This document shows positions 5,690-9,437 of a stretch of DNA of 64,000 nucleotides, one piece after another. The stretch is from Escherichia coli (GTDB taxonomy: Bacteria > Pseudomonadota > Gammaproteobacteria > Enterobacterales > Enterobacteriaceae). The stretch's first letter is position 1, and every line of letters begins with the position of its first letter. The notes below the pieces were generated by a model. It did not search any database, was not told the origin of the DNA, and saw only the letters and a program-made list of their open reading frames with translations. The stretch lies in the NCBI RefSeq assembly GCF_003334385.1, contig NZ_QOWN01000013.1; one strand, written 5' to 3'. Both the position numbers and the translations under genes were made by a program.

Positions 5690-5988
5690 ATAGAGATTCA
5701 ATATTTAAGGGCACGGTTTTTGCAACCGTGTTCTTGTTTGGCCTTTCCTTATAGCCGGTCAGTGCATTCACCACCACAAGCAGATAATAACTTTATCTGT
5801 ATTTCTTTATATGATGTGAGCATATTCAGGAAAAATGACCTTTCCTGAGGTACAGTTGCTCGCTCAAATCCTTTGATTACTGCGGATAAAGTCATCTACT
5901 ATTGTTTAACACATTCACGCGCTGCATGTATGTTCAGAAAATGTGCACGCTAAGATAATTAAACAAAATTGTGGTTACAGAGGTATCA

Positions 5989-7242
5989 GTGAGTCACTGG
6001 GCTACATTCAAACAAACAGCAACAAATTTATGGGTGACCCTTCGGCACGACATTCTCGCGCTGGCCGTCTTTTTAAATGGATTGCTTATTTTTAAAACAA
6101 TCTATGGTATGTCGGTCAATTTGCTTGATATTTTCCATATCAAAGCATTTTCAGAGTTGGATCTCTCCTTGCTGGCAAACGCCCCACTCTTTATGCTCGG
6201 CGTCTTTCTTGTCCTGAACTCCATTGGCTTACTGTTCCGGGCAAAGCTCGCATGGGCAATCAGTATCATTTTGTTGTTGATAGCGCTAATTTACACCCTG
6301 CATTTTTATCCCTGGCTGAAATTTAGTATTGGATTTTGCATTTTTACGCTGGTGTTTTTGCTGATACTGCGCAAAGACTTCTCCCACAGTAGCGCCGCAG
6401 CCGGGACAATTTTTGCATTTATTAGTTTCACGACATTACTGTTTTACTCAACCTACGGTGCGCTTTATTTAAGCGAAGGTTTTAATCCGCGAATAGAAAG
6501 TTTGATGACCGCGTTCTATTTTTCGATAGAAACCATGTCAACCGTCGGCTATGGCGATATTGTCCCTGTTTCTGAATCAGCACGATTGTTCACTATTTCG
6601 GTCATTATTTCCGGCATTACCGTTTTTGCCACATCTATGACCTCAATTTTTGGTCCGCTTATCCGCGGGGGATTCAACAAACTTGTAAAAGGAAACAATC
6701 ATACAATGCATCGTAAAGATCATTTTATTGTTTGCGGACATTCGATTCTCGCCATCAATACGATCCTGCAACTGAATCAACGCGGACAAAACGTAACGGT
6801 TATCAGCAACTTGCCTGAAGATGATATCAAGCAACTTGAGCAACGCTTAGGCGATAATGCTGATGTTATCCCCGGTGACAGTAATGACAGTTCTGTATTA
6901 AAGAAAGCGGGAATCGATCGTTGCCGGGCCATTCTGGCGCTGAGTGATAACGATGCAGATAACGCGTTTGTTGTACTCTCGGCAAAAGATATGAGCAGTG
7001 ATGTCAAAACAGTTCTCGCCGTCAGTGATAGCAAAAACCTGAATAAGATTAAGATGGTACATCCGGATATCATTCTCTCACCGCAACTGTTTGGCAGCGA
7101 AATTCTGGCGCGAGTTTTAAATGGTGAAGAGATTAATAATGATATGCTCGTTTCAATGTTGTTGAACTCAGGTCATGGTATTTTCAGCGATAACGATGAA
7201 CTAGAAACGAAAGCTGACAGTAAAGAATCGGCGCAAAAATAG
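5989..7242 (+). CDS. kch: Voltage-gated potassium channel Kch
   Basis: 417 aa from a GTG start (MSHWATFKQ...). Has the TVGYGD selectivity-filter motif and a C-terminal RCK/TrkA domain. Confidence 0.92.
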   Translation: MSHWATFKQTATNLWVTLRHDILALAVFLNGLLIFKTIYGMSVNLLDIFHIKAFSELDLSLLANAPLFMLGVFLVLNSIGLLFRAKLAWAISIILLLIALIYTLHFYPWLKFSIGFCIFTLVFLLILRKDFSHSSAAAGTIFAFISFTTLLFYSTYGALYLSEGFNPRIESLMTAFYFSIETMSTVGYGDIVPVSESARLFTISVIISGITVFATSMTSIFGPLIRGGFNKLVKGNNHTMHRKDHFIVCGHSILAINTILQLNQRGQNVTVISNLPEDDIKQLEQRLGDNADVIPGDSNDSSVLKKAGIDRCRAILALSDNDADNAFVVLSAKDMSSDVKTVLAVSDSKNLNKIKMVHPDIILSPQLFGSEILARVLNGEEINNDMLVSMLLNSGHGIFSDNDELETKADSKESAQK

Positions 7243-7296
7243 AGTTTAAAGACGGAAGAGTAAACTTATTGGGCACCGCAATGGTGCCCAGTACAT

Positions 7297-7470
7297 TTAG
7301 ATATTGTAGATCGCAAACAATAACGAGTTACGCTGTTTGTTTAGAATGCACTTCCTGATGCTGTGGATACGCATATTTCGGCGCGATTGCCCCTCAAGCC
7401 AACGCGATTTACGTCGGCTAGCCTGACGCTGCATGCGCCAGCGCCCCACTTCCGTTCTACTCCGCTTCAT
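7297..7470 (-). CDS. yciY: Small basic protein, probably YciY (57 aa)
   Basis: Internal Met of the 94-aa track ORF gives a 57-aa arginine-rich peptide MKRSRTEVGRWRMQRQ... in the kch-cls intergenic region. The YciY assignment is from memory of its length and location only. Confidence 0.4.
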   Translation of the reverse strand: MKRSRTEVGRWRMQRQASRRKSRWLEGQSRRNMRIHSIRKCILNKQRNSLLFAIYNI

Positions 7471-7612
7471 GTTAACTACTCTATGCAATAACAGAATGGT
7501 CATTATACCCCCACCCCCGACGCTGACCAGTGCTTTTCCCGCGTTTTTATTTGCCAGATGAATCCATATGCGTAAACTCATAACAATGCGCTTTCAAAAG
7601 GATTTCTAATCT

Positions 7613-9437
<1,825 letters not shown>

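What the first reader, a model, noticed from the sequence alone, without database searches (positions are those of the whole stretch)
7297..7470. Small arginine-rich ORF in the kch-cls intergenic region
A 57-aa highly basic peptide (MKRSRTEVGRWRMQRQASRRKSRW...) is encoded on the minus strand. I believe this corresponds to YciY, but the assignment is from memory of length and location only; its function is unknown.
Basis: inference. Interest (0 to 1): 0.15.

Follow-up and report, generated by a model that had tools for sequence, protein, structure and literature searches.

The report
Known small basic protein gene yciY
The 57-codon arginine-rich ORF is the already annotated and translated E. 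coli small-protein gene yciY, a real and strongly conserved gene always paired head-to-head with the cardiolipin synthase gene, whose function has still not been studied.

Summary
Window 7297-7470 (minus strand) encodes exactly the quoted 57-aa peptide (pI 12, net +15).

The sequence is identical to UniProt YCIY_ECOLI / RefSeq WP_001309467.1, scores 109.8 bits on NCBIfam NF033701 (cut-off 30), and is present in 5423 of 5426 complete E. coli genomes. Published tetracycline ribosome profiling puts a start-site peak on this ATG, and a chromosomal Venus fusion is expressed (PMC4909307).

What I added:
- The ORF is intact in 80 of 80 species genomes, under purifying selection (dN/dS about 0.065) in this frame only.
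- The E. coli 94-aa upstream extension is not conserved.
- The gene has its own conserved promoter (invariant TATAAT), an AGAG ribosome-binding motif and a hairpin right after the stop codon.
- It lies divergent from cls-yciU in all 80 species loci and all six distant-lineage loci (about 142 bp start to start in the 80, 143-254 bp in distant lineages); kch is a neighbour only in Escherichia.
- AlphaFold2 predicts one long helix, with conserved residues on every face.

Function is unknown. My best inference is an arginine-rich helix that binds RNA or another polyanion. A link to ClsA/cardiolipin or to YciU is the main rival. This is an already known gene and interest is low.

The parts
7297..7470 (-). 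yciY coding sequence (57 codons plus TAA stop at 7299-7297); start ATG at 7470-7468
   Evidence: Translation; RefSeq CDS at the same coordinates; TetRP start peak with identical sequence; dN/dS 0.065 in this frame only; NF033701 109.8 bits.
7479..7482 (-). AGAG Shine-Dalgarno-like motif, 8 nt upstream of the ATG
   Evidence: Read directly from the sequence; AGAG is conserved at this position in most of 24 genera aligned. Its function as a ribosome-binding site is inferred.
7502..7529 (-). yciY sigma-70-type promoter: -35 TGGTCA (7529-7524), 16-nt spacer, -10 TATAAT (7507-7502); transcription start inferred near 7495, giving a 5' UTR of about 25 nt
   Evidence: Consensus scan, 10 of 12 matches; TATAAT present in 80/80 loci and invariant in the alignment. 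The 7 nt after the -10 average 67.5% G+C against 41% for the intergenic region. The transcription start site was not measured here.
7533..7552 (-). Conserved A-tracts (GGAAAAG 7539-7533; AAATAAAAAC 7552-7543) between the two divergent -35 hexamers; resembles an UP element
   Evidence: Conserved columns in the 24-genus intergenic alignment. The UP-element reading is inference from the known consensus and was not tested.
7270..7290 (-). Hairpin UGGGCACC-AUUGC-GGUGCCCA starting 6 nt after the yciY stop; probable terminator, shared with convergent kch in E. coli
   Evidence: RNA fold -17.7 kcal/mol, z = -4.25, 0 of 200 shuffles as stable. The GGGCACC/GGTGCCC stem follows the stop in all 24 Enterobacteriaceae genera examined, and a different hairpin plus T-run occurs in a Dickeya-like locus. 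The simple terminator scan did not call it because the T-run is weak in E. coli.
7551..7578 (+). Divergent cls promoter (TTGCCA, 16 nt, TAAACT), back-to-back with the yciY promoter; context rather than part of yciY
   Evidence: Consensus scan; both hexamers conserved across genera. The distance from the cls ATG to the yciY ATG is about 142 bp in 80/80 loci.

Best explanation
Shown: this is yciY, a genuine, independently transcribed and translated small-protein gene. It forms a compact unit of about 225 nt with its own promoter, short leader, 57 codons and a hairpin straight after the stop codon. It is conserved across Enterobacterales under protein-level purifying selection, and in the 80 species genomes and four distant lineages sampled it is always divergent from cls-yciU. 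Inferred: the product is a soluble, extremely basic (+15) single long alpha-helix. It most likely works as an arginine-rich-motif-type ligand of a polyanion. RNA is the most probable target (rRNA/ribosome or a specific RNA), with the helix held on all sides by its partner. Arg side chains would contact phosphates and bases, and the two invariant Trp residues (W11, W24) would stack or pack, as in the lambda N and HIV Rev peptides. The promoter anatomy (consensus -10, A-tracts upstream of the -35, G+C-rich discriminator) resembles growth-rate/ppGpp-controlled promoters of the translation apparatus, which weakly favours a ribosome-linked role. Identity as yciY is near certain (above 0.97). The stated confidence refers to the polyanion/RNA-binding mechanism.
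For: Identity and reality: exact YCIY_ECOLI; 5423/5426 E. coli genomes; TetRP start peak and Venus fusion, PMC4909307; 80/80 intact, dN/dS 0.065, third-position entropy 1.08 against 0.19-0.32; codons 1-40 pN/pS 0.10 against 0.059 for cls in the same genomes; upstream extension not conserved. Transcription unit. Mechanism (inferred): pI 12, net +15, 23% Arg, no transmembrane segment, hydrophobic moment at most 0.54 with mean hydrophobicity about -0.85, so not a membrane-surface helix. AlphaFold2 predicts a single helix over residues 5-56, mean pLDDT 90.4. There are 19 invariant residues including the RWRM and RWLE motifs. Conservation is spread evenly round the helix (moment 0.02), with an Arg stripe R5/R12/R19/R23/R30/R34. 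The resemblance to arginine-rich RNA-binding peptides is from established knowledge, not a test.
Against: No binding partner was tested or can be tested with these tools. No chain resembling YciY exists in 252,289 PDB entries, which from my own knowledge include many E. coli ribosome structures. The only hit is a non-significant match to mitochondrial uS14 (E = 0.23), so YciY is not a stoichiometric component of ribosomes solved so far. The only invariant genomic neighbour is a membrane lipid enzyme gene, not a translation gene. The promoter reading is consensus-based only. High pLDDT for an isolated helix is weak evidence of its real conformation. A natural IS1 insertion removes the C-terminal 17 codons in one isolate, so at least that part is dispensable.
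Confidence: 0.4

Rival explanations
1. YciY is functionally tied to cardiolipin synthesis. The basic Arg/Trp helix binds anionic phospholipid (cardiolipin/PG) or ClsA itself and tunes ClsA activity, stability or localisation, or it feeds back on the shared divergent promoter region.
For: cls is the only invariant neighbour. It is divergent with an ATG-to-ATG gap of about 142 bp in 80/80 species loci and is still divergent (143-254 bp) in four distant lineages whose downstream genes all differ. The two promoters sit back-to-back with conserved hexamers. From general knowledge, Arg/Trp-rich peptides have affinity for anionic lipids.
Against: There is no amphipathic face: conserved residues lie all round the helix (moment 0.02), and the hydrophobic moment is at most 0.54 at mean hydrophobicity -0.85, with no transmembrane segment. 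Head-to-head linkage can persist simply because overlapping promoters are hard to separate. From general knowledge cls occurs far beyond Enterobacterales, while YciY relatives form only 39 clusters in 1.84 billion representative proteins. No functional data were found.
Confidence: 0.22
2. YciY is a DNA-binding or nucleoid-associated peptide, or the natural ligand of the co-located dsDNA-mimic protein YciU, whose acidic surface would sequester the basic helix.
For: YciU (annotated as an HI1450-family dsDNA mimic) is 109 aa, pI 4.05, net -23, and lies in the same locus in 84/86 loci; the two exceptions are truncated contigs. YciY is +15. The opposite charges and constant co-location are suggestive.
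Against: An AlphaFold2 model of YciY-linker-YciU with a paired 23-genome alignment gave pTM 0.47, and the YciY segment fell from pLDDT about 90 to 45-78, so no confident docking. This is a crude test with a shallow alignment and no PAE available. The co-location is fully explained by yciU lying directly downstream of cls. No conserved operator-like element stands out beyond the two promoters and ribosome-binding sites in the intergenic alignment.
Confidence: 0.13
3. The ORF acts in cis as a leader or regulatory peptide, or the conservation reflects an RNA or DNA element rather than a protein.
For: It is a short ORF in an intergenic region beside a promoter. It has many Arg codons, including a conserved AGA at codon 5 (seen in the alignment). 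It is followed by a stable hairpin.
Against: Substitutions fall mainly on third codon positions, and dN/dS is 0.065 in this frame only, so the amino-acid sequence itself is selected. The hairpin follows the stop directly, and the downstream gene differs between lineages and is often convergent, so there is nothing consistent to attenuate. No Rfam family matches here.
Confidence: 0.03

Closest known systems
YciY family (UniProt YCIY_ECOLI; RefSeq WP_001309467.1; NCBIfam NF033701; Pfam PF26518)
   Same: Identical sequence, length, strand and position; this is the family's founding member.
   Different: Nothing differs. The family has no assigned function.
Arginine-rich-motif (ARM) RNA-binding peptides such as lambda/P22 N and HIV Rev/Tat (functional analogy only, from established knowledge)
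   Same: Very high Arg content, predicted helical conformation, conserved Trp residues within Arg runs (RWRMxRQ, RWLE), and small size.
   Different: No sequence homology was detected and no RNA target is known. YciY is longer (a conserved core of about 40 residues) and is chromosomal in Enterobacterales, with no PHROGs hit.
Small basic ribosome-associated proteins (for example bS21, bL34, Sra) and the N-terminal helix of uS14
   Same: Small, helical and pI around 12. There is a weak profile similarity to the uS14m N-terminal helix, and the promoter anatomy resembles that of translation genes.
   Different: The uS14m match is not significant (E = 0.23). YciY is absent from all solved structures, and it is not in a ribosomal-protein operon.
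Small protein regulators of membrane enzymes and transporters in E. coli (for example MgtS, AcrZ, MgrB; from established knowledge)
   Same: Small size and being encoded next to a membrane-protein gene.
   Different: Those regulators are hydrophobic single-pass membrane peptides. YciY has no transmembrane segment and GRAVY -1.14.

Membership tests
YciY family (NCBIfam NF033701 / YCIY_ECOLI) | Whole-protein HMM score above the curated cut-off | tested here: met
   109.8 bits against a cut-off of 30, E = 5e-32, profile positions 1-55 of 56.
YciY family (NCBIfam NF033701 / YCIY_ECOLI) | Sequence identity to the reference protein and the same annotated locus (between kch and cls in E. coli K-12) | tested here: met
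   Exact-sequence look-up returns YCIY_ECOLI. The RefSeq MG1655 CDS maps to window 7297-7470. The nucleotide and protein sequences are identical to those in the PMC4909307 supplement.
YciY family (NCBIfam NF033701 / YCIY_ECOLI) | Pfam PF26518 (YciY) domain | tested here: inconclusive
   The on-demand Pfam-A scan found nothing, probably because it uses an older library. All homologues, including the 94-aa E. coli form, carry precomputed PF26518.
Bona fide protein-coding gene | Purifying selection on the encoded amino acids, and evidence of translation | tested here: met
   dN/dS 0.065 and a frame-specific third-position excess; 80/80 intact ORFs; TetRP peak and Venus fusion.
Arginine-rich-motif RNA-binding peptides (works-like class) | Arg-rich helical segment | tested here: met
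   23% Arg, net +15; predicted helix over residues 5-56, pLDDT 90.
Arginine-rich-motif RNA-binding peptides (works-like class) | Specific binding to an RNA target | not testable with these tools
   Needs CLIP/RIP, EMSA or gradient co-sedimentation.
Ribosomal or ribosome-bound proteins | Homology to a known ribosomal protein, or presence in solved ribosome structures | tested here: not met
   A profile search of 177,635 distinct PDB sequences found only uS14m at E = 0.23. Foldseek against the PDB gave 0 hits.
Small membrane-protein regulators / type I toxins | Hydrophobic transmembrane helix | tested here: not met
   GRAVY -1.14, with no window of positive mean hydrophobicity longer than the last roughly 11 residues.
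Phage or defence-system proteins | Match to a PHROGs or PADLOC model | tested here: not met
   No families at E <= 1.

The most novel reading that the evidence does not exclude
YciY is not a generic polycation but a dedicated third component of the conserved yciU-cls/yciY locus. In this reading an all-round-contacted basic helix couples cardiolipin synthesis to a nucleic-acid-linked process. It could do so by regulating ClsA directly, or by being buffered by the dsDNA-mimic YciU. That would explain why cls stayed the gene's only constant neighbour in every Enterobacterales lineage sampled here.
Probability: 0.15. Interest if true: 0.45.

Novelty: already known. Interest (0 to 1): 0.12.

Why it matters
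As a finding it changes little, because yciY is annotated in every E. coli genome and its translation has been published. Its value is as a well-behaved orphan. It is as constrained as a housekeeping enzyme over its first 40 residues (pN/pS 0.10 against 0.059 for cls). It is restricted to Enterobacterales, has its own conserved promoter and terminator, and is linked to cardiolipin synthase in every locus sampled here, yet it has no functional study. That makes it a reasonable low-cost target for small-protein functional work, but not a surprise.

Tried and rejected
1. The 94-aa form starting at ATG 7581 (some pipelines call it; P0001, P0159). Rejected because the extension carries stop codons in most genera and is not conserved, and TetRP maps the start to 7470.
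2. A known RNA family here. Rfam gave only a chance-level CRISPR-DR35 hit inside kch (E = 0.77).
3. Phage or defence origin. There are no PHROGs or PADLOC hits.
4. Homology to a solved structure. There is only a non-significant uS14m hit. Foldseek of the single-helix model found nothing, as expected for a lone helix.
5. Fusions to larger proteins that could reveal function. The deep profile search found 39 clusters, all small. The one 819-aa hit is a repeat artefact.
6. YciY-YciU docking by a linker-fused AlphaFold2 model. pTM was 0.47, so there is no support.
7. A membrane or amphipathic-helix reading. This is not supported by hydrophobic moment or hydrophobicity, or by the even spread of conservation round the helix.
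8. A bZIP-like reading (basic region plus zipper). The C-terminal 17 residues show no heptad leucine repeat, read directly from the sequence. This was considered only and is not pursued.
9. Literature. Whole-word and substring searches for yciY and b4595 gave one relevant paper, one incidental use of the locus as an insertion site, and noise. The iModulon supplement has no entry. Li 2014 and Hemm 2008/2010 are not held, and two small-protein papers have no held supplements.

Full report
OBSERVATION. The minus strand of window 7297-7470 translates to MKRSRTEVGRWRMQRQASRRKSRWLEGQSRRNMRIHSIRKCILNKQRNSLLFAIYNI followed by a stop codon. The peptide has 13 Arg and 4 Lys against 2 Glu, a pI of 12.0, net charge about +15 and GRAVY -1.14, with no transmembrane-length hydrophobic stretch. 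It lies between kch (5971-7242, +) and cls (7613-9073, +). The mechanical ORF continues upstream to an ATG at 7581, giving 94 aa. ORF length alone is not evidence, because the same list holds many 50-107-aa ORFs in wrong frames of neighbouring genes.

IDENTITY. A megablast of window 7200-7640 against 5,426 complete E. coli genomes finds the region in 5,423 of them, annotated 'yciY: YciY family protein' between kch and cls. In K-12 MG1655 the RefSeq CDS (WP_001309467.1) maps to exactly window 7297-7470 on the minus strand. An exact-sequence look-up returns 'Uncharacterized protein YciY, RepID=YCIY_ECOLI', seen on at least 1000 contigs. NCBIfam NF033701 (yciY_fam) scores 109.8 bits against a curated cut-off of 30. 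The on-demand Pfam scan was empty, but every homologue carries precomputed PF26518 'YciY'.

TRANSLATION. Nakahigashi et al. 2016 (PMC4909307) list a tetracycline-inhibited ribosome-profiling start peak at this ATG, with identical nucleotide and protein sequences (supplement). They used a chromosomal yciY-Venus fusion (IVP3) as the positive control for expression in LB and minimal medium.

IS IT A PROTEIN GENE OR A CONSERVED DNA/RNA ELEMENT?
- Intactness. A scan of one genome per species returned 309 loci encoding a relative, of which I analysed the best 80, drawn from about 25 genera. The ORF is intact in all 80: 57 aa in 72 loci and 59 aa in 8.
- Variation by codon position. Across 78 distinct coding sequences, column entropy by codon position is 0.32/0.19/1.08. 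Median Nei-Gojobori dN is 0.095, dS is 1.24 and dN/dS is 0.065.
- Other frames. The two shifted sense frames and two of the antisense frames give pN/pS of 1.6-2.6. The antisense frame that shares third positions gives 0.31, the expected mirror artefact.
- Comparison with cls. In the same genomes pN/pS is 0.059 for cls, 0.10 for yciY codons 1-40 and 0.24 for codons 41-54.
- Conserved residues. Nineteen residues are invariant in a 30-sequence alignment, including E7, V8, R10-W11-R12-M13, R15-Q16, R23-W24-L25-E26 and Q28-S29-R30.
- Upstream extension. The E. coli 94-aa extension has in-frame stops in most genera and no conservation.
The conserved gene is therefore the 57-codon ORF, and selection acts on its amino-acid sequence.

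TRANSCRIPTION UNIT.
- Promoter. A sigma-70-type promoter lies on the minus strand: TGGTCA (7529-7524), a 16-nt spacer, then TATAAT (7507-7502), matching 10 of 12 positions. TATAAT is present in 80/80 loci and invariant in a 24-genus alignment.
- Other upstream signals. That alignment also shows conserved A-tracts upstream of the -35, and a conserved AGAG 8 nt before the ATG.
- Discriminator. The 7 nt after the -10 average 67.5% G+C, against 41% for the whole intergenic region.
- Hairpin. Six nucleotides after the stop codon lies a hairpin, UGGGCACC-AUUGC-GGUGCCCA (7290-7270). It folds at -17.7 kcal/mol with z = -4.25. The same GGGCACC/GGTGCCC stem follows the stop in every Enterobacteriaceae genus examined, and a Dickeya-like genome has a different hairpin with a T-run. 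Covariation is limited because the stem is conserved mainly in sequence.
- Status. The transcription start (about 7495) and the terminator function are inferred, not measured.

GENOMIC CONTEXT.
- cls pairing. In all 80 loci yciY is divergent from cls, with start codons about 142 bp apart. kch is the other neighbour only in Escherichia, in 6 of 80 loci.
- cls promoter. Its hexamers (TTGCCA 7551-7556, TAAACT 7573-7578) are conserved back-to-back with the yciY promoter.
- Distant lineages. Four distant family members (54-60% identical) are still divergent from a 486-aa PLD-type cardiolipin synthase followed by DUF440/yciU. Their downstream neighbours all differ: a chemoreceptor, an unknown gene, yciI and an Rce1-like gene.
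- yciU. It is present in 84 of 86 loci, and the two exceptions are truncated contigs.
- Range. A supplement of PMC11188072 lists YciY-family small ORFs in Dickeya, Edwardsiella, Morganella, Pantoea, Pectobacterium, Proteus, Providencia, Serratia and Yersinia.
- Family size. A profile search of 1.84 billion representative proteins finds only 39 clusters. All are small proteins except one repeat artefact.
The family is narrow, apparently confined to the order Enterobacterales, never fused to another domain, and its only constant neighbour is cls-yciU.

STRUCTURE AND MECHANISM (INFERRED).
- Fold. AlphaFold2 with the 30-sequence alignment predicts one continuous helix over residues 5-56, with mean pLDDT 90.4.
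- Conservation pattern. Conservation has no preferred helical face (moment 0.02). One face carries an Arg ladder (R5, R12, R19, R23, R30, R34), and the invariant Trp, Val, Met and Ile residues lie on the other faces.
- Not a membrane helix. The hydrophobic moment is at most 0.54 at a mean hydrophobicity of about -0.85, which is not the profile of a membrane-surface helix.
- Reading. A helix constrained on all sides and carrying +15 charge is what one expects of a peptide enclosed by a polyanionic partner. By analogy with arginine-rich-motif peptides (established knowledge), RNA is the most likely partner. The promoter features weakly point to the translation apparatus.
- Evidence against a ribosomal role. 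No PDB chain resembles YciY. The best hit is mitochondrial uS14 at E = 0.23, which is not significant, so YciY is not a stoichiometric part of solved ribosomes. Foldseek gives nothing.
- Confidence. I put about 0.4 on the RNA/polyanion-binding mechanism.

RIVALS.
(a) A ClsA/cardiolipin link, confidence about 0.22. It is supported by the constant head-to-head pairing in the sampled loci. It is weakened by the lack of an amphipathic or membrane-seeking face, and by the fact that interlocked divergent promoters are hard to separate.
(b) DNA binding or pairing with the acidic dsDNA-mimic YciU (pI 4.05, net -23), confidence about 0.13. A linker-fused AlphaFold2 model with paired sequences gave pTM 0.47 and reduced confidence in the YciY segment. 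That is no support, but the test was crude.
(c) A leader peptide or non-protein element, confidence about 0.03. It is contradicted by frame-specific selection and by the variable, often convergent downstream genes.

DISPENSABILITY. In E. coli C3728 an IS1 insertion truncates yciY after about 40 codons, and the record annotates it as a pseudogene. At least the less conserved C-terminus is therefore dispensable in one natural isolate.

VERDICT. The feature is the already known, already translated, functionally uncharacterised gene yciY. Novelty is 'already known' and interest is low (0.12). The comparative results are useful context but do not make the finding surprising: strong constraint, a self-contained transcription unit, order-wide pairing with cls-yciU, and an all-round-conserved basic helix.

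Noticed in passing
window 7270-7290: The hairpin between convergent kch and yciY keeps the same stem sequence (GGGCACC/GGTGCCC) across Enterobacteriaceae genera that lack kch, even though synonymous sites in yciY are near saturation (dS about 1.2). Sequence-level conservation of a terminator stem is stronger than structure alone would require.
   Followed up: partly
window 5971-7242 (kch); loci L002-L081: kch sits next to yciY only in Escherichia (6 of 80 species loci). Elsewhere other genes occupy that side (yciI directly, a chemoreceptor, an Rce1-like gene), so kch looks like a lineage-specific insertion between yciY and yciI-tonB.
   Followed up: partly
window 7471-7581 (minus strand): In E. 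coli and E. albertii the yciY frame stays open upstream to an ATG at 7581, giving a 94-aa ORF that overlaps the cls promoter. Several pipelines call this long form (P0001, P0159, P0160), but it is not conserved outside Escherichia.
   Followed up: yes
window 7495-7552 (minus strand): The yciY promoter combines a perfect, invariant TATAAT, a G+C-rich discriminator (67.5% against 41% background) and conserved A-tracts upstream of the -35. This anatomy is reminiscent of ppGpp/DksA-sensitive, growth-rate-controlled promoters. It was not tested.
   Followed up: partly
window 9108-9437 (yciU, +): YciU (HI1450-family dsDNA mimic, 109 aa, pI 4.05, net -23) lies just downstream of cls and so always sits in the same locus as the +15 YciY. 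A linker-fused AlphaFold2 model gave no support for a complex (pTM 0.47).
   Followed up: partly
L088 (E. coli C3728, NZ_CP196347.1) 1749-2622: An IS1A element is inserted in yciY, leaving the first roughly 40 codons, and the gene is annotated as a pseudogene. This is a natural partial knockout in a human faecal isolate.
   Followed up: yes
summary; Several database oddities appeared. 13 matches to this region lie on records labelled plasmids. YciY proteins are labelled Listeria monocytogenes (P0043, a 252-bp contig) and Chryseobacterium sp. 18061 (L074, with an Enterobacter-like cls). A 45-aa member is named 'chpB toxin' (P0158). These are probably contamination or annotation errors.
   Followed up: no
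L043 (Kluyvera genomosp. 3 YDC799): The cls match here is only 67.7% identical over 526 alignment columns, unlike 86-99% elsewhere. This suggests a frameshifted or disrupted cls, or a sequencing error, next to an intact yciY.
   Followed up: no
window 7150-7185 (+): There is a sub-threshold Rfam hit to CRISPR-DR35 (19.3 bits against a gathering score of 35, E = 0.77) inside the 3' end of kch. I judge it a chance match.
   Followed up: no
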